Assembly: GCF_035084215.1 (NCBI RefSeq)
Contig: NC_090332.1
Coordinates: 34,906,001 to 34,970,000 of the forward strand
Source of the DNA: Heptranchias perlo
Lineage: Eukaryota
DNA length: 64,000 nt
Direction of reading: 5' to 3'
The translations under genes and the position numbers were made by a program. Below, piece after piece: positions 15,725-63,662 of the stretch. The number at the start of each line of letters is the position of its first letter. Within the stretch, counting starts at the first letter, position 1. The notes beneath the pieces are model-generated. The model saw only the letters and a list, made by a program, of their open reading frames with translations. It made no database searches and had not been told where the DNA came from.

Positions 15725-15932
15725 ACAGATGGTTGAGGGATAAATGTTAGCCAAGGCACCAGGGAACTCACCTGCACTTCTTTGAATAGTGCAGACCTCC
15801 AAAAGTACAGCACTCCCTCAGTATTGCACTGAAATGTCAGGCGAGATTATATGCTGAAGTCTCTGGAGTAGGACTTGCACCCACGGCCTTCTGACTCAGA
15901 GGTGAGAGTACTACCATTGAGTCAAGGCTGAC
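15725..15932 (-). mobile_element. tRNA-derived SINE, Deu-domain type (internally deleted)
   Basis: Minus strand: A-box-like TGACTCAATGG, B-box-like GTGCAAGTCC, then tactgagggagtgctg and ttccctggtgccttggctaacatttatccctcaacc; same family as 45062-45423. Confidence 0.7.
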
Positions 15933-27848: not shown

Positions 27849-28215
27849 AAGGGGTGATCTAATTGAGGTGTTTAAGATCATTATAGGATTTGATAGGGTA
27901 GATAGCGAGAAACTATTTCCTCTGGTGGGAGAGTCCAGACCAAGGGGGCATAACCTGAAAATTAGAGCTAGGCTGTTCAGGAGCGATGTCAGAAAGCACT
28001 TCTTCACACAAAGGGTAGTGGAAATCTAGAACTCTCTCCCCCAGACAGCTGTTGAGGCCAGGTCAATTGAAAATTTCAAAACTGATATTGATAGATTTTT
28101 GTCAGGCAAGGATATTAGGGGTTATTGAAACAAGATGGGTAAATACAGATCAGCCACGATCTAACTGAATGGCGGAACAGGCTCAAGGGGCTGAATGGCA
28201 TACTCCTGTTCCTCT
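27849..28215 (+). mobile_element. CR1 LINE 3' fragment
   Basis: aggggtgatctaattgaggtgtttaag (RGDLIEVFK), TRGHNLK, FFTQRVVEI, and 3' UTR ggctgaatggcatactcctgttcct. Confidence 0.85.
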
Positions 28216-28229
28216 GTAGACAAGAATAT

Positions 28230-29225
28230 CATTGTCTGCTATATGTGTCCTATGTTGATCTTAAAGTTAGCATTTGATTCTGTGTATAGGCCTGCCCTTT
28301 GGCAAATATTCTCCATCCTTGGGGACCCTGACAAAATTGTACGATTGGTCTCTGCCTTACTCTCAGACACTAGCAGCTTGGTAAGGACTGCAGGGGACAA
28401 GCGCCTGCCATTTCCAATCAATTCAGGTGTCTCATTGGTCCAGATTCCTTTGATAGAGTCATGGATTGAATTCTAGAATGGTGCATCATTGCTCGATGAA
28501 TTGAGCCTCGATTGGCAGCAATTCCTCACGGACTTAGCTTTCGCAGATGATGTTGCCATATTGGTAGAAATGATTACCGTTCTTGTCTCGACCCTCAAAA
28601 TCTTTGTGGAGAATGCCTGCCCCATAGGCTTGCAAGTCAACTGGAAGAAAACAAAAGTCCAGTCACTCAGCAACCTTCTCCTGCGTCCGCCTAATCAACA
28701 GATCACAGGTGAGACTGTGAAATTCATGGAGCAGTTTATATATCTGGGATCACTGATCCACAAATCAGATTGAAACCTTTCAGAATTAGGATGCAGAATT
28801 TTACTGATGCACTAGATGATGGACCTAAATAAGAACATATTTGGGTGTAATGAGGCAGTATTGTCTTCGCCACATCTGCCGTATTCGGTGGTGTGACCGC
28901 ATTAGCATTACTCAGATCAGAAAGATGACCGCCAACCTCCCCCAAGTGTCACAATTGCCAAAAGGCACTTATTGCTGTTTGGGCATGTGGCCAGGCTCAA
29001 CTGGTCATACAATACCATCAAGGCACTCAGAGCTTGTCCTCTGAAGACCTGAAAACGCCACCATGGAAGGCCAAGAAGTATCAAGCTCTCGACCGTTACA
29101 GCTGACCTCAGGACCCAGAATATAGGGATCTTCTCCACCATGAGGAGAGCTGAAGACCGTGAGAGATGGAGACGTACGATACACCAAAAAATACTATGCA
29201 GGAGCATGCTACAATGACGGTGAGA
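28230..29225 (+). mobile_element. Decayed RTE-clade LINE RT fragment
   Basis: AFDSV, LTDLAFADDVAIL, GLQVNWKKTKVQ, FIYLGSLI and CLRHICRIRWCDRI motifs, interrupted by frameshifts. Confidence 0.75.
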
Positions 29226-29467
29226 GAAGTTTAGTTACATTATAGGAGATATAATGTAGCTGAACCTATCTCAACTATCAAGAGGTGTACATGCTGCAGA
29301 GTGAGGTGGCCTGGGTCTGATTTTCTTCTCTCTTATGGTGACATGCTTGACTACTGTGAGCTGCAACAGCCAAGAACTTGGCGAAGGGCACACCTAATTT
29401 TGTTGGAGCAAAATGATTTGTAAGCATGGCCTCATGAGCAACTCCACGTGACAAGTCGATCCGCATC

Positions 29468-32400
29468 TTTTTTTTTATTCGTTCACGGGATGTTGGCGTC
29501 GCTGGCGAGGCCAGCATTTATTGCCCATCCCTAATTGCCCTCGAGAAGGTGGTGGTGAGCCGCCTTCTTGAACCGCTGCAGTCCGTGTGGTGACGGTTCT
29601 CCCACAGTGCTGTTAGGAAGGGAGTTCCAGGATTTTGACCCAGCGACAATGAAGGAACGGCGATATATTTCCAAGTCGGGATGGTGTGTGACTTGGAGGG
29701 CAACGTGCAGGTGGTGTTGTTCCCATGTGCCTGCTGCTCTTGTCCTTCTAGGTGGTAGAGGTCGCGGGTTTGGGAGGTGCTGTCGAAGAAGCCTTGGCGA
29801 GTTGCTGCAGTGCATCCTGTGGATGGTACACACTGCAGCCACAGTGCACCGGTGGTGAAGGGAGTGAATGTTTAGGGTGGTGGATGGGGTGCCAATCAAG
29901 CGGGCTGCTTTATCTTGGATAGTGTCGAGCTTCTTGAATGTTGTTGGAGCTGCACTCATCCAAGCAAGTGGAGAGTATTCCATCACACTCCTGACTTGTG
30001 CCTTGTAGATGGTGGAAAGGCTTTGGGGAGTCAGGAGATGAGTCACTTGCCGCAGAATACCCAGCCTCTGACCTGCTCTCGTAGCCACAGTACTTATATG
30101 GCTGGTCCAGTTAAGTTTCTGGTCAATGGTGACCCCCAGGATGTTGATGGTGGGGGATTCGGGGATGGTAATGCCGTTGAATGTCAGGGGGAGGTGGTTA
30201 GACTCTCTCTTGTTGGAGATGGTCATTGCCTGGCACTTATCTGGCGCGAATGTTACTTGCCACTTATGAGCCCAAGCCTGGATGTTGTCCAGGTCTTGCT
30301 GCAGGCGGGCTCGGACTGCTTCATTATTTGAGGGGTTGCGAATGGAACTGAACACTGTGCAGTCATCAGCGAACATCCCCATTTCTGACCTTATGATGGA
30401 GGGAAGGTCATTGATGAAGCAGCTGAAGATGGTTGGGCATAGGACACTACCCTGAGGAACTCCTGCAGCAATGTCCTGGGGCTGAGATGATTGGCCTCCA
30501 ACAACCACTAACATCTTCCTTTGTGCTAGGTATGACTCCAGCCACTGGAGAGTTTTCCCCCTGATTCCCATTGACTTCAATTTTACTAGGGCTCCTTGAT
30601 GCCACACTCGGTCAAATGCTGCCTTGATGTCAAGGGCAGTCACTCTCACCTCACCTCTGGAATTCAGCTCTTTTGTCCATGTTTGGACCAACGCTGTAAT
30701 GAGGTCTGGAGCCGAGTGGTCCTGGCGGAACCCAAACTGAACATCGGTGAGCAGGTTATTGGTGAGTAAGTGCCGCTTGATAGCACTGTCGCTGACACCT
30801 TCCATCACTTTGCTGATGATTGAGAGTAGACTGATGGGGCGGTAATTGGCCGGATTGGATTTGTCCTGCTTTTTGTGGACAGGACATACCTGGGCAATTT
30901 TCCACATTGTCGGGTGGATGCCAGTGTTGTAGCTGTACTGGAACAGCTTGGCTAGAGGCGCAGCTAGTTCTGGAGCACAAGTCTTCAGCACTACAGCTGG
31001 GACATAGCCTTTGCTGTATCCAGTGCACTCAGCCGTTTCTTGATATCACGTGGAGTGAATCGAATTGGCCGAAGACTGGCTTCTGTGATGGTGGGGATAT
31101 CGGGAGGAGGCCGAGATGGATCATCCACTCGGCACTTCTGGCTGAAGATGGTTGCAAACGCTTCAGCCTTGACTTTTGCACTCACGTGCTGGACTCCGCC
31201 ATCATTGAGGATGGGGATGTTTGCAGAGCCTCCTCCTCCCGTTAGTTGTTTAATTGTCCACCACCATTCACGACTGGATGTGGCAGGACTGCAGAGCTTT
31301 GATCTGATCCGTTGGTTGTGGAATCGCTTAGCTCTATCTATAGCATGTTGCTTCCGCTGTTTAGCATGCATGTAGTCCTGAGCTGTAGCTTCACCAGGTT
31401 TGCACCTCATTTTTAGGTACGCCTGGTGCTGCTCCTGGCATGTTCTTCTACACTCCTCATTGAACCAGGGTTGATCCCCTGGCTTGTTGGTAATGGCAGA
31501 GTGAGGAATATGCCGGGCCATGAGGTTACAGATTGTGGTGGAATACAATTCTGCTGCTGCTGATGGCCCACAGCGCCTCATGGATGCCCAGTTTTGAGCT
31601 GCTAGATCTGTTCTGAATCTATCCCATTTAGCACGGTGGTGGTGCCACACAACACGTTGGATGGTGTCCTCAGTGCGAAGACGGGACTTCATCTCCACGA
31701 GGATTGTGAGGTGGTCACTCCTACCAATACTGTCATGGACAGATGCATTTGCGACAGGTAGATTGGTGAGGACGAGGTCAAGTAAGTTTTTCCCTCGTGT
31801 TGGTTCGCTCACCACCTGCCGCAGGCCCAGTCTGGCAGCTATGTCCTTCAGGACTCGGCCAGCTCGGTCAGTAGTGGTGCTACCGAGCCACTCTTGGTGA
31901 TGGACATTGAAGTCCCCCACCCAGAGTACATTTTGTGCCCTTGCTACCCTCAGTGCTTCCTCCAAGTGGTGCTCAACATGGAGGAGGACTGATTCATCAG
32001 CTGAGGGAGGACGGTAGGTGGTAAGCAGCAGGAGGTTTCCTTGCCCATGTTTGACCTGATGCCATGAGATTTCATGGGGTCCAGAGTCAATGTTGAGGAC
32101 TCCCAGGGCCACTCCCTCCTGACTGTATATCACTGTACCGCCACCTCTGGTGGGTCTGTCCTGCCGGTGGGACAGGACATACCCAGGGATGGTGATGGAA
32201 GAGTCTGGGATGTTGGCTGAAAGGTATGATTCTGTGAGTATGGCTTTGTCAGGCTGTTGCTTGACTATTCTGTGGGACAGCTCTCCCAATTTTGGCACAA
32301 GTCCCCAGATGTTAGTAAGGAGGACCTTGCACGGTCGACTGGGCTTGGTGTTTTGCCGTAGTCGTGTCCGATGCCGGGTGGTCCGTCCGGTTTTATTCTT

Positions 32401-32754
32401 ATTATGACTTTTCGTAGCGAGGTTTTACAACTGAGTGGCTTGCTAGGCCATTTCAGAGGGCAATTAAGAATCAACCACATTGCTGTGGGTCTGGAGTCAC
32501 ATATAGGCCAGACCGGGTAAGGATGGCAGGTTTCCTTTCCTAAAGGACATTAGTGAACCAGATGGGTTTTTACGACAATCCGGTAGTTTCATGGCCATCA
32601 TTACTGATACTAGTATTTTAATTCCAGACTTTATTTAATTAATTGAATTTAAATTCGCCAGCTGCCGTGGCAGGATTTGAACTCATGACTCTGGATTTTA
32701 GTCCAGGCCTCTGGATTACTAGTCCAGTAACATAACCACTATGCTACCGTACCC
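29468..32754 (-). mobile_element. Near full-length single-ORF LINE (APE endonuclease + RT) with tRNA-derived 5' head and poly(A) tail
   Basis: APE motifs (LTES, GDFNVHH, LDLVL, SDH) in 30991-32424 and RT motifs (NYRPISLLS, QFGFR, LDIKAAFDRV, GVPQGSVL, FADD) in 29531-30991, separated by one 13-nt deletion; A9 tail at 29468-29476; no TSD seen. Confidence 0.93.
32660..32754 (-). promoter_or_regulatory. tRNA-Thr(AGU)-like head with internal Pol III promoter boxes
   Basis: A box TAGCATAGTGG (32746-32736), anticodon arm CTGGA-CTAGTAA-TCCAG, B box GAGTTCAAATCC (32684-32673). Confidence 0.8.
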
Positions 32755-33542: not shown

Positions 33543-34678
33543 GTGTCTGAAGTGCTATCTCTCTCTTCCCCTGTGGTATGAAATTTTGTGTCTGTCCAAA
33601 CTTCTCTCTTTCTCTGAACTCTCCTCTGTCTGTTCAAAGTACTGTCGTAAGCCCTCCTGATCTCCCTGGTAATTTGGGCTCATCTTGCGATTGCACACGG
33701 TACATTAGTAAATATGGTCACTCTTTACATGTCTCTGGTGTCTTTGTGTTGCTGTGTTTCTCTCTTCCACCCCCCCCCCCCACACCCCTCCTCTGCTTCT
33801 GTCACTCTTTTTCATATTCTTGCAAGTGGGAGGTGGTCGGTAATATGGTATGGTGAGATGGGGAAGGAACTACCAACTGCTGCAGGCTGCAAGCCCATGA
33901 ATATCTTCCAGTGCTACCAAAGTGCAGGACTGCCCCATTCTCTATCCCCAGTACTGCTGAATACCAGGGGATGAATTTCTGCAGGGTTTCTTCTGCTCAC
34001 CTACTGTAGCTTCAACAGAAAAGCTATGGAAATACTGGAAAAATGGAGTAAACCTCTTTTATAAATTCCTATGTTGACATTTATAGGTTTACATAGGCAA
34101 AACCTATCACAGTGTAATTACACAAATCTGGCCAGTGTGTGTGAACAGTTTTTCAGCATTTCCAGAGAGTCACTCTCCGGAAACTTTCAGAGACTCTGTC
34201 CACCATCTTGTTTACTTGAGGCTTTTTACTTCTACATTTTTAAGACTTTAATCCTCTCCCTCCCCCCCGAAACAGTGTATTGCCACCTTTCAGCCTCCTG
34301 CCTCCCCTAAAGTTAATAAAATCAGGTTCTTGACTGGTCTTAGTGACCTCCTCTTCACCCACTCCTGGGGTTCCAACCTAGTGTTTGTTAATTTAATTTT
34401 AATTTCAATATTTATTTTGAACTTTCATAAAATGTAAGATAAAATAACACACCGTTTGTCAAATTTGGTGCAACTTGATAATTCCCTTCCTTCCCCAGCT
34501 GCTGCTGCAGTCCCGGCCCCTAATGTAGCCCCTGGCCATTAACTCTAGCCATCACAGCCCCAATTCCAAATTGGATGGTGTGCATCCACGTCGACTCTGC
34601 TGACCTCAGCCACACTGGCAGGATTGTATAATTACAGTTTGATGACTTATTAAAGACACAGCTTCCAATATAAATGTG

Positions 34679-37093
34679 TAGAACAGCAGACAGAGGGATC
34701 CGCGGTACAGCAACCGAAGAGGAAAGAGTCAAACTGGACTCCTCCGGAGGGTCGCTGCCCTCAGCTGGACATGTATGCTCAAGCTGTCAGGAAATGCGTC
34801 AATGCCAGATTCATCAGGCGCACTCAGAAGACAGTCCAGAATGTCACCCGAGTACAACGCAACGCCATCAACGCTCTCAAGACCAACCGCAACATCGTCA
34901 TCAAACTAGCGGACAAAGGAGGAGCCATAGTCATACAGAACAGAACGGACTATTGCAAAGAAGCATACCGACAACTGGACAACCAGGAACACTACAGACG
35001 GTTACCCGCAGATCCGACCAAAGAACACACCCACCAGCTCAACAAACTGATCAAGACCTTCGATCCAGACCTTCAAAGCATCCTACACACTCTCATCCCA
35101 CGTACTCCCCGCGTGGGAGACTTCTACTGCCTCCCAAAGATACACAAAGCCAACACACCCGGACGTCCTAGCGTATCAGGCAACGGAACCCTGTGTGAGA
35201 ACCTCTCTGGATACATCGAGGGCATCCTGAAACCCATCGTACAGGGAACCCCCAGCTTCTGTCGCGACACTACAGACTTCCTACAAAAACTCAGTACCCA
35301 CGGACCAGTTGAACCAGGAACACTTCTCACCACGATGGACGACTCGGCACTCTACACCAGTATCCCCCACGATGACGGCATCGCTGCGACAGCATCAATA
35401 CTCAACACCAACAACAGCCAATCTCCGGACGCCATCCTACAACTCATCCGCTTCATCCTGGATCACAATGTCTTCACCTTCGATAACCAGTTCTTTACCC
35501 AAACACACGGAACAGCCATGGGGACCAAATTTGCACCCCAATACGCCAACAATTTCATGCACAAGTTCGAGCAGGACTTCTTCACTGCACAAGACCTCCA
35601 ACCAACACTATACACCAGATACATCGACGACATTTTCTTTCTATGGACCCACGGCAAGGAATCACTAAAGAGACTACACGATAACATCAACAAGTTCCAT
35701 CCCACCATCAAGCTCACCATGGACTACTCCTCAGAATCAGTTTCTTTCTTGGACACACGAATCTCCATCAAAGACGGGCACCTCAGCACCTCACTCGACC
35801 GCAAGCCCACAGACAACCTCACGATGCTCCACTTTTCCAGCTTCCACCCTAACCACGTCAAAGAGGCCATCCCCTATGGACAGGCCCTGCGAATACACAG
35901 GGTCTGCTCAGACAAGGAGGAACGCGATGGACACCTACAGACGCTGAAAGATGCCCTAGTAAGAACGGGATATGACGCTCGACTCATCGATCGACAGTTC
36001 CGACGGGCCACAGCAAAAAAATCGCATAGACCTCCTCAGGAGACCAACACGGGACGCAACCAACAGAGTACCCTTTGTCGTCCAGTACTTCCCCGGAGCG
36101 GAGAAACTACGCCATGTTCTCCGCAGCCTTCAACATGTCATCAATGACGACGAACACCTCGCTATGGCCATCCCCACACCTCCACTACTCGCCTTTAAAC
36201 AGCCACCCAACCTCAAACAGACCATCGTTCGCAGCAAATTACCTAGCTTTCAAGAGAACAGCGTCCACGACACCACACAACCCTGCCACGGTAACCTCTG
36301 CGAGACATGCCAGATCATCGACACAGATACCACCATCACACGAGAGGACACCACCCACCAGGTGCATGGTTCATACTCCTGTGACTTGGCCAACGTTGTT
36401 TACCTCATACGTTGCAGGAAAGGATGCCCCGGAGCATGGTACATTGGCGAGACCATGCAGACGCTGCGACAACGGATGAACGGACACCGCGCAACAATCG
36501 CCAGACAGGAGGGTTCCCTCCCAGTCGGGGAACACTTCAGCAGTCATGGACATTCATCCACCGACCTTCGGGTAAGCGTACTCCAAGGCGGCCTTCGAGA
36601 CACACGACAACGCAAAATCGTCGAGCAGAAATTGATAGCCAAGTTCCGCACCCATGAGGACGGCCTCAACCGGGATCTTGGGTTCATGTCACGCTACACG
36701 TTACCCCACCAGCGAACAAATGTTATCTGTTTTTAATATAACGGGTCAGTTGCTGTCTTTTCTATGTTTCTACCTCTCTATCTCTGTTTTTTTTTGTTTG
36801 TTGTTTTTTTTTGGTGATTTGTATATTCTGAGACCTTGCAGGTAACACCTGTCTGTCTGCACACTGATTGCCTTGGCAACGGGCAGTTGAAAAAACTGTC
36901 TGTAATCACCAAGCATTGTTCTGTGAATTATAAATGCGATTTCATTTCGAGGATTTCATTTCCACATCGTTCACCTGAGGAAGGAGGAAGCCTCCGAAAG
37001 CTTGTGAATTTAAAATAAAATTGCTGGACTATAACTTGGTGTTGTAAAATTGTTTACAATTGTCAACCCCAGTCCATCGCCGGCATCTCCACA
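34679..37093 (+). mobile_element. Penelope-like element (RT + GIY-YIG), family A, 5'-truncated and young
   Basis: ADKGGAIV, FYCLPKIHK, QTHGTAMGTKFAP, RYIDDIF, FLDT, then GIY-YIG NVVYLIRC...WYIGET; a single frameshift at an A7 run (36015-36021); TSD CAATATAAATGTG at 34666-34678 and 37092-37104. Confidence 0.95.
36970..37008 (+). ncRNA. Minimal type I hammerhead ribozyme motif in the PLE 3' terminal region
   Basis: ttcac-CTGAGGA-a-GGAGG aag CCTCC-GAAA-GCTT-gtgaa. Confidence 0.8.
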
Positions 37094-45061: not shown

Positions 45062-45423
45062 TGTAGTCACTATTGTAATATAGGAAACGTGGCAGCCAAT
45101 TCGTGCACAAACAAGCAATGTGATAATGACCAGATAAATAATTTTAAAAAAAAGTGACGTTGGTCGAGGGATAAATATTGTCCAGGACACCAGGGAGAAC
45201 TTCCCTGCTCTTCTTCAAAATCATGCCATGGAATCTTTTACATCCATCTGAGTAGGTGGACAGGTTAATGTCTGATCCAAAGGACGGCACCTCCGACAGA
45301 GCAGCATTCCCTTAGTACTGCAATGGAGTGTCAGTCTAGGTGTGCGCAAGTCTCTGGAGTGGGATTTGAATCCACAGCCTTCGGAGTCAGAGGCAAGAGT
45401 GCTACTGCTGAGGCACAGCTGAC
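45062..45423 (-). mobile_element. tRNA-derived SINE (Deu-domain type), 5' portion; the 3' portion lies at about 42560-42638
   Basis: Head gtcagctgtgcctcagcagtagcactcttgcctctgactccgaaggctgtGGATTCAAATCC; central gttctccctggtgtcctggacaatatttatccctcgacc; tail ...aaaggcgctatataaatgcaagtct beyond the PLE. Confidence 0.8.
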
Positions 45424-62904: not shown

Positions 62905-63662
62905 TCTCCTTTTTGTTGTGATGTGGGTGAGCTGACAAAGCGGCATTTATTTTCCATCCATAGTTGAGAAGGTGGTAGTGGGCATCCTTGAACTGCTGCA
63001 GTTCTTGTGTTGATGGTGCTCTCATAATGGCGTTGGGTAGAAAATTGCAGGATTGTGATCCATCGATGATGAGAGTATATGACGATTGGGAGTATATGTC
63101 CAAGGTAGTGTGATGTGTGACTTGGAGGGGAATTTGAAGGTCTTGGTGTTTCCGTGACGTTCTTCTCAGTAGTAAGGATATGGATCTGGAGGATGCTGTC
63201 AAATTAAGCTTGGTGAGTTGCTGCAGTGCATCCTGTAGACAGCATATACTGCTACTACAATGCAGAGAACCGATCAATTGGACCGCTTTGTCCTGGATGG
63301 TATTGAGCTTCTTGACTGTCGTTACAATAGCACTCGTTCAGCTGAGTGGTGAGCATTCCATCATACTCCTGATTTGGGCTTTGTAGATGGTAGAAAGGCT
63401 TCGAGGGGTCAGCAGGTGAATCAGAATACTCTGCCTCTGCCTTGCTCTGGTAGCCATGGTGTTGATAAAGTTGATCCATTCAAGTTTCTGATCAATGGTG
63501 ACCCACCCAAGATGTTGACTGAGGACTCAGTGCTGGTGGTTAGGTTTTTTCATTTTGGAGATGGCCATTGCCTGGCACTTATGAAGTACAAATATCAGCC
63601 CAAGCTTGGATGTTGTCCAGGTCCTGCTGTATGGGCTGCTTCTTAACAGAGGAGCTGTGAAT
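62905..63662 (-). mobile_element. Third, heavily decayed 3' fragment of the APE-RT LINE family
   Basis: gagaaggtggtagtggg...cttgaactgctgcag, gtgtgacttggaggg and ggagatggccattgcctggcactta match 29540-30300. Confidence 0.85.

What the first reader, a model, noticed from the sequence alone, without database searches (positions are those of the whole stretch)
32265..32660. The LINE endonuclease has no AUG start: structured leader and an overlapping uORF suggest non-canonical translation
Seen: the APE frame opens right after an in-frame TAA (32427-32425) and reads NLATKSHNKNKTGRTTRHRTRLRQNTKPSRPCKVLLTNIWGLVPKL...; the first in-frame ATG is at 31692, after the APE SDH motif. Just upstream are hairpins CTGA-AA-TGGC-ctagcaa-GCCA-C-TCAG (32456-32431) and GGTCTGG...CCAGACC (32514-32488). 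An ATG-initiated 71-codon uORF (32480-32265) overlaps the APE frame, which lies in its -1 frame. Inference: the endonuclease would need IRES-like or non-AUG initiation, or a -1 frameshift from the uORF, which fits an uncapped Pol III transcript.
Basis: partly seen in the sequence, partly recalled or inferred. Interest (0 to 1): 0.7.

Follow-up and report, generated by a model that had tools for sequence, protein, structure and literature searches.

The report
Shark LINE gene without start codon
Thousands of copies of a shark jumping gene (a LINE) share an endonuclease/reverse-transcriptase gene that has no AUG start codon yet evolves like a working gene, so ribosomes likely enter it by a non-standard, possibly IRES-like route that is still untested.

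Summary
The coordinates check out. The window holds a broken copy of a 3.3-kb, tRNA-headed, single-ORF LINE with thousands of copies in a shark genome. The missing AUG is a family trait: 28 of 30 close copies lack one, and 98 of 100 listed youngest copies carry the TAA. The ORF is still under purifying selection between TAA-bearing age classes (dN/dS 0.22, 17 changes), so the endonuclease is likely made without an AUG.

The proposed -1 frameshift is disfavoured. The uORF's AUG looks like a decayed ACG in older copies, linker changes are silent in the APE frame (12 of 21) but not the uORF frame (1 of 18), and there is no canonical slippery site. The hairpins are no more stable than shuffles and show no covariation.

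My best reading (about 0.4) is IRES-type entry at or beside a GCU 12 nt after a hairpin with an anticodon-like loop. Rivals are L1-like reinitiation after an overlooked in-frame 31-codon uORF, and protein supplied by rare AUG-open copies. Pol III transcription is suggested, not shown.

The parts
29465..32754 (-). Whole element: tRNA-headed single-ORF LINE, 3.29 kb, ending in a short A tail
   Evidence: 19 of 20 fetched copies span about 3.1-3.3 kb at 93-97% identity
32673..32754 (-). tRNA-like head with A box (32746-32736) and B box (32684-32673); box identity judged from recalled consensus
   Evidence: Rfam tRNA 22.3 bits, E 0.053, below the gathering score of 29; copies share this 5' end
32497..32592 (-).
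   Evidence: ATG in 17 of 21 old, 10 of 11 and 15 of 15 younger copies; stop in 21, 11 and 15
32488..32514 (-). Hairpin H2; the uORF stop lies in its loop
   Evidence: Predicted; one pair broken in the old subfamily
32265..32480 (-).
   Evidence: Start site ATG in only 7 of 20 old copies; 1 of 18 changes synonymous in this frame
32431..32456 (-). Hairpin H4 with 7-nt loop CUAGCAA; contains AUG-GCC-UAG in the APE frame (32451-32443)
   Evidence: 8,348 genomic matches; stems unchanged between old and young consensus; z -1.33
32425..32427 (-). In-frame TAA, nearly fixed in the youngest subfamily; TAC or TAT in older ones
   Evidence: 59 of 2,710 youngest-class copies differ
32413..32418 (-). GCU-ACG: candidate ribosome entry point, 12 nt after H4 (inferred)
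   Evidence: GCT in 16 of 20 old and 10 of 10 young copies; spacer 12 nt in 17 of 20 and 10 of 10
32314..32418 (-). Basic Lys/Arg-rich N-terminal extension read in the APE frame
   Evidence: Length changes mostly in threes; synonymous bias; similar extension in relative P0015
30991..32313 (-). APE endonuclease (from the NIWG strand) and linker; first ATG at 31692
   Evidence: PF03372, PF14529; motifs aligned with 13 relatives
29531..31045 (-). Reverse transcriptase and C-terminal part; out of frame with APE in this copy
   Evidence: PF00078; 13-nt gap; continuous 973-codon frame in L047

Best explanation
This is a family-wide AUG-less endonuclease/reverse-transcriptase gene in a tRNA-headed shark LINE, likely transcribed by RNA polymerase III and likely translated by IRES-type ribosome entry at or beside the GCU at 32418. 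Shown: the element structure, copy number, absence of an in-frame AUG, purifying selection on the ORF, and a synonymous bias in the APE frame along the linker. Inferred: Pol III makes an uncapped full-length RNA; the ~170-nt leader body binds ribosomes; hairpin H4, whose loop resembles an alanine anticodon loop, pairs with the GCU and sets the frame; elongation begins without Met, giving a basic N-terminal tail before the first APE strand.
For: No in-frame AUG in 28 of 30 copies. TAA in all but 59 of 2,710 youngest-class copies. Consensus of 11 older versus 15 younger TAA copies: 10 synonymous, 7 replacement, dN/dS 0.22; p 0.002 against site counts, p 0.03 against private changes. From GCT onward, old versus youngest: 12 of 21 changes silent in the APE frame, 1 of 18 in the uORF frame, and the first two codons after GCT are among the silent ones. 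No near-cognate start is conserved there: the codon after GCT is ACG, ACA or AAA by subfamily. GCT sits 12 nt from H4 in 17 of 20 old and 10 of 10 young copies although the spacer differs at 4 of 12 positions. No T4 run in the window copy or 17 of 20 others. Dicistrovirus IGR IRESs commonly start at GCU (PMC10516663).
Against: No IRES activity was measured. The loop-GCU pairing is only 3-4 bp; a 4-bp match arises by chance in 13.5% of shuffles; there are no two-sided changes in any helix and two pairs break in the old subfamily. No Rfam IRES match at E<=10. Folding energy is at chance level. Only two codons of silent change lie upstream of the A-rich stretch. T4 absence has P 0.005-0.12 depending on the null, and an RTE-like control is also T4-poor. 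486 of 8,348 copies do have an open AUG. The selection test rests on 17 changes. In mid-age versus old copies the APE-frame bias is weaker, 6 of 17.
Confidence: 0.4

Rival explanations
1. L1-like AUG-independent reinitiation: ribosomes translate the in-frame 31-codon uORF (or the AUG-GCC-UAG mini-ORF), stay on the RNA and restart at a non-AUG codon near the GCU.
For: The uORF's AUG, Kozak context, length and stop are conserved in old and young subfamilies. L1 ORF2 is translated AUG-independently, perhaps by reinitiation (PMC11485995).
Against: It needs scanning from a 5' end that would be uncapped if Pol III makes the RNA. The restart lies about 80 nt and two or three stops downstream. Only 2 of 5 uORF changes are silent.
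Confidence: 0.2
2. Canonical start at the AUG inside hairpin H4 (32451), either in rare AUG-open copies that supply protein in trans or by read-through of the single UAG in TAC/TAT lineages; TAA copies would be passengers.
For: Good context AUG. 486 open copies. TAC occurs on fully young haplotypes. Older subfamilies have only one stop between this AUG and APE. 62 of 63 full-length distant relatives are annotated with Met, although gene callers write Met for any start.
Against: Open copies are scattered over the trees and are 16 of 2,710 in the youngest class (my count). The loop T is a general CTAG hot spot, 13% versus about 1.5%. TAC restores a perfect palindrome, a recalled recurrent-mutation mechanism. 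TAA copies carry each new trunk change. The codon is GTG in 9 of 22 old copies.
Confidence: 0.17
3. One reading: initiation at the AUG at 32480 and a -1 frameshift into APE, most plausibly at the conserved A-AUA-AAA (32397-32391).
For: Offset kept in 27 of 30 copies. The uORF frame is open in old and young consensus. It explains indifference to the TAA. The A-rich stretch is conserved.
Against: Start site in 20 old copies: ATG 7, ACG 6, ACA 2, ATA 2, other 3, the pattern of a decaying CpG. Seven AUGs lie upstream. None of three candidate heptamers fits X XXY YYZ. 1 of 18 changes silent in this frame. No strong stimulator in the fold.
Confidence: 0.1
4. A spliced or read-through Pol II transcript joins an upstream AUG to the APE frame.
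For: A donor-like GT lies at 32500 and one downstream AG would keep frame in young copies (read).
Against: That phase is not kept in old copies and there is no pyrimidine tract. Copies are mostly unspliced and full length.
Confidence: 0.07

Closest known systems
Single-ORF APE-RT non-LTR retrotransposons of the CR1/L2 group, including 2A-bearing ones (PMC3894237); clade label recalled, not tested
   Same: One APE-RT ORF, no ORF1. Closest full-length database relatives 39-40% identical; 23 of the top 150 carry a 2A motif.
   Different: No 2A motif recognised in this leader by eye, no AUG, and a tRNA-type head.
R2 elements (PMC3414825, passages)
   Same: A conserved stop codon in the 5' structured RNA, with IRES-type initiation proposed; internally deleted derivatives.
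   Different: R2 is processed from the rRNA co-transcript by a ribozyme. No such fold was recognised here by eye; the only Rfam R2 hit is on the wrong strand at E 1.4.
Mammalian L1 ORF2 (PMC11485995, one passage)
   Same: AUG-independent translation of an APE-RT ORF downstream of another ORF.
   Different: L1 has a real ORF1 and, from recall, a natural ORF2 AUG. Here the AUG is naturally absent and the upstream ORF is 31 codons.
Dicistrovirus IGR (type 6) IRES (PMC10516663, passages)
   Same: Non-AUG start, often GCU, just after an anticodon-like hairpin; similar size.
   Different: Only 3-4 bp of possible pairing, no PKII/PKIII identified, no Rfam match.
SacSINE1 / DeuSINEs (PMC5499810, PMC7245038)
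   Same: tRNA head plus conserved body in sharks; short derivatives join body to a LINE tail.
   Different: The body here is not the Deu domain (best blastn E 1.6 to a Deu-bearing locus).
RTE-1_DAn and relatives (one sentence in PMC5786205)
   Same: A LINE that contains a tRNA-like sequence.
   Different: RTE clade; the passage says nothing on promoter or translation.

Membership tests
APE-type non-LTR retrotransposon (LINE) | APE and RT domains in one ORF | tested here: met
   Pfam PF03372, PF14529, PF00078; 973-codon frame in L047
APE-type non-LTR retrotransposon (LINE) | Interspersed copies with A-rich 3' end and 5' truncations | tested here: met
CR1/L2 clade assignment | RT phylogeny against named reference elements | not testable with these tools
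Pol III (type 2 promoter) transcript | A and B boxes in a tRNA-like head at the 5' end | tested here: met
   Rfam score below gathering, ARAGORN finds no tRNA
Pol III (type 2 promoter) transcript | No internal T4+ terminator | tested here: inconclusive
   0 in 3.29 kb; P 0.005-0.12; RTE-like control also poor
Pol III (type 2 promoter) transcript | Pol III occupancy, 5'-triphosphate RNA | not testable with these tools
   Only contigs available
Type 6 (IGR) IRES | Non-AUG first codon directly after the 3' domain | tested here: inconclusive
   GCU in frame and conserved; true start unknown
Type 6 (IGR) IRES | PKI pseudoknot mimicking anticodon-codon pairing | tested here: inconclusive
   3-4 bp, chance 0.135, no covariation
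Type 6 (IGR) IRES | Match to curated IRES models (PKII/PKIII, L1.1) | tested here: not met
   No IRES family at E<=10
Type 6 (IGR) IRES | Factor-independent ribosome binding | not testable with these tools
   Needs toeprinting
Programmed -1 frameshift | X XXY YYZ heptamer in the 0 frame | tested here: not met
   0 of 3 candidates
Programmed -1 frameshift | Conserved start of the 0-frame ORF | tested here: not met
   ATG in 7 of 20 old copies
DeuSINE | Deu domain in the body | tested here: not met

The most novel reading that the evidence does not exclude
A vertebrate retrotransposon that is transcribed by Pol III and carries a factor-independent, dicistrovirus-like IRES: an alanine anticodon-loop mimic pairs with a GCU and starts a 970-residue endonuclease/RT without Met-tRNA. 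Its SINE-like deletion derivatives would keep the same body as a ribosome-binding module.
Probability: 0.15. Interest if true: 0.92.

Novelty: new variant of a known kind. Interest (0 to 1): 0.6.

Why it matters
How LINEs start translating their endonuclease/RT is an open question, and a 2013 commentary (PMC3894237) notes that IGR-type IRESs in such elements would force a rethink of what ORF2 is. This family offers a natural AUG-less case with a 350-nt leader that can be tested directly in reporters. If it is also Pol III-driven, it is a protein-coding Pol III unit in a vertebrate genome and a model for how SINE bodies can arise from LINE 5' ends.

Tried and rejected
Deu-domain identity: I first assumed it from recall, then rejected it; notebook entry 1 is corrected by entry 2.

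Distant relatives with DNA context: none from a metagenome protein scan or a viral pattern scan. The 12 metagenome pattern hits were unrelated. Two old LINE fragments in the window retrieved only young-family copies. The PDB sequence search gave no endonuclease hit.

RNA runs (four, RNA status guessed, contigs only): pieces across the leader are present, but these runs cannot show starts, strand or level. No splice-like joint into the APE frame appeared among the 15 of 62 joints shown, which proves nothing.

Considered by eye and rejected: 2A peptide, HDV or hammerhead ribozyme, calicivirus-type TURBS, T4 gene 60-type bypass (take-off and landing codons do not match in young copies), and an RT-only protein from the first AUG (APE motifs are intact and APE codons change mostly silently). 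The bacterial promoter scan is irrelevant here.

Rows dropped: duplicates L021, L027, L101, L109, L149, and copies covering under 1,400 nt or 1,300 nt. Consensus differences with support under 0.6 or 0.65 were skipped.

Full report
OBSERVATION. Every coordinate in the finding is correct. The minus-strand frame 32424-30991 opens after TAA 32427-32425 and matches the APE families PF03372 and PF14529. Its first ATG (31692) lies after the SDH motif, so a protein starting there would lack the whole endonuclease. The two hairpins and the 71-codon uORF are present. Folding energy is not above chance: z -1.86 over 261 nt, with 8 of 200 shuffles as good, and 0.16 to -1.34 in five pieces.

WHAT THE ELEMENT IS. 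It spans 32754-29465: tRNA-like head, about 170 nt of conserved body, a basic linker, one APE-RT ORF, 3' tail and A run. This copy has a 13-nt gap relative to L047 between APE and RT. The 3.25-Gb genome gave 2,826 candidates for the 5' part; the best 40 were 92-100% identical. The copies share one 5' end, 19 of 20 fetched copies are near full length, and L047 has a 973-codon stop-to-stop frame. Patterns count 4,597 copies with hairpin end plus linker and 8,348 with the hairpin. Fragments 80-95% identical sit in proteins annotated from Heptranchias, Heterodontus and Pristiophorus. DNA contigs of four further coded organisms cover body and APE but fit the linker poorly. The host is therefore a shark. 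Sixty loci match a pattern joining the hairpin end to the 3' tail, as in SINE-like internal deletions; a few of the 30 inspected lack the body. The body is not the Deu domain: the Deu alignment in the supplement of PMC7245038 looks unrelated, and a Deu-bearing locus gives best E 1.6 against the leader.

THE MISSING AUG IS A FAMILY TRAIT. Of the 30 closest loci (the window copy among them), 28 have no in-frame ATG before the NIWG strand and 27 keep the uORF offset; the common linker indels are 15 and 3 nt. An older subfamily (20 copies, about 80% to the young one) also has none downstream of the hairpin. Age classes form a ladder: old copies read TAG...TAT, middle ones mostly TAC, the youngest TAA. 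In the youngest class (2,710 copies) 98 of 100 listed have TAA (my count) and 59 in all differ.

THE ORF IS STILL CONSTRAINED. The consensus of 11 older TAA copies differs from that of 15 younger TAA copies by 10 synonymous and 7 replacement changes, dN/dS 0.22. This gives p 0.002 against site counts and p 0.03 against private changes (98 and 217; dN/dS 0.69). Catalytic motifs align with 13 relatives. The inference is that RNAs with two in-frame stops and no AUG made their own protein. It rests on 17 changes.

AUG-OPEN COPIES, THE MAIN OBJECTION. An AUG in good context sits inside hairpin H4 (32451), followed by GCC and the TAG of the loop. In 486 of 8,348 copies both stops are absent. I looked for a source lineage and found none: such copies are scattered and are 16 of 2,710 in the youngest class (my count). 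The loop T varies because T in CTAG is a hot spot throughout the element, 13% versus about 1.5% for other T. TAC does appear on fully young haplotypes, and 57 of the 59 non-TAA alleles are TAC. TAC makes a perfect palindrome, which from recall is a recurrent mutation class, but a minor TAC lineage with UAG read-through is not excluded.

WHERE THE RIBOSOME ENTERS. From the GCT at 32418 to the uORF stop, old and youngest consensus differ by 12 silent and 9 replacement changes in the APE frame, and 1 and 17 in the uORF frame. Old versus middle copies give 6 and 11 against 1 and 15 (codon alignments optimised per frame). GCT is present in 16 of 20 old and 10 of 10 young copies, 12 nt from the hairpin in 17 and 10. 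Its distance to the NIWG asparagine is a multiple of three in 14 and 10, with lengths of 105-123 nt. The next codon is ACG, ACA or AAA, so no near-cognate start is conserved. Relative P0015 (40% identical) has Met followed by a similar Arg-rich stretch before the first strand. The linker thus reads as a real N-terminal extension whose Met is gone. Evidence upstream of the A-rich stretch is only two silent codons.

The uORF start in 20 old copies is ATG 7, ACG 6, ACA 2, ATA 2, other 3, as expected from a decaying CpG. Seven AUGs precede it and no canonical slippery heptamer exists. A shift at the conserved A-AUA-AAA cannot be excluded by frame data alone. I give it 0.1.

STRUCTURE AND POL III. 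H4's loop, CUAGCAA, fits the recalled tRNA anticodon-loop pattern with an alanine anticodon and can pair with the GCU(A) 12 nt downstream. That echoes the PKI of dicistrovirus IGR IRESs, which commonly start at GCU (PMC10516663, passages). The support is thin: 3-4 bp, chance 0.135, no two-sided change in any of seven helices, two pairs broken in the old subfamily, and no Rfam IRES match. Only 2 of 11 old/young differences fall in the 63 stem positions of 126, mildly in favour of structure. The sense strand has no T4 run in this copy or 17 of 20 others; P ranges 0.005-0.12 by null, and an RTE-like control is also T4-poor while a Penelope-like one is not. Pol III transcription is plausible, not shown.

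MECHANISM AND ODDS. IRES-type entry at or beside the GCU on an uncapped Pol III RNA, 0.4 (a factor-independent tRNA mimic, 0.15, is included in that). L1-like reinitiation after the conserved in-frame 31-codon uORF, 0.2. Canonical AUG in rare copies or by read-through, 0.17. Frameshift, 0.1. Splicing, 0.07.

WHAT IS KNOWN. AUG-independent translation is reported for L1 ORF2 (PMC11485995, one passage). IRES-type initiation linked to a conserved stop is suggested for R2 (PMC3414825, passages). PMC3894237 (parts 1-2 of 3) lists ORF2 initiation as open and raises IGR IRESs only as a possibility. [quoted passage not shown] PMC5499810 (part 2 of 6 and passages; supplement unavailable), PMC4824008 (passages; one supplement file not searchable) and PMC7245038 (passages and supplement passages) cover SacSINE1 or Deu SINEs, and what I read does not describe this element. 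Eight searches listed no title or abstract start describing it. Three earlier scan notes report a tRNA-headed LINE in other genomes; they are unchecked leads, and what was shown of them does not address the start codon.

VERDICT. Observation confirmed, interpretation partly supported. New variant of a known kind; interest 0.6.

Noticed in passing
whole element, copies L022-L150: T in TpA varies among copies far more than A in TpA (5.4% vs 2.0%; T of CTAG 13%). The strand asymmetry hints at a change made at the RNA or reverse-transcription stage; unexplained.
   Followed up: partly
window 32592-32497 (-): Conserved 31-codon uORF in the APE frame with good Kozak context; could be a vestigial ORF1 or a regulatory peptide.
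   Followed up: partly
L196: Apparent chimera: SacSINE1-like head and Deu domain joined to this family's hairpin H4 and 3' tail.
   Followed up: no
L183-L212 and 30 more loci: Internal deletions join the end of hairpin H4 to the 3' tail through many different junctions; one junction recurs in about a dozen loci.
   Followed up: partly
window 34654-36736 (+): RT ORF (PF00078) followed by a frame that looks like a GIY-YIG nuclease by eye: Penelope-like element, frameshifted.
   Followed up: no
window 56932-58512 and 62943-63629 (-): Old, decayed 3' fragments of the same LINE family, 73% and 66% identical.
   Followed up: partly
window 45160-45376 and 15730-15884 (-): SacSINE1/Deu-like copies.
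   Followed up: no
window 28195-29044 (+): Decayed RT fragments that look RTE-like by eye.
   Followed up: no
window 32725-32690 (-): The tRNA head carries an internal duplication of its anticodon-arm region; other organisms' contigs show the body with a plain head.
   Followed up: no
P0002, P0003, P0006, P0009, P0010: Pieces of this LINE are built into annotated host proteins (three named from sharks), probably gene-prediction artefacts.
   Followed up: no
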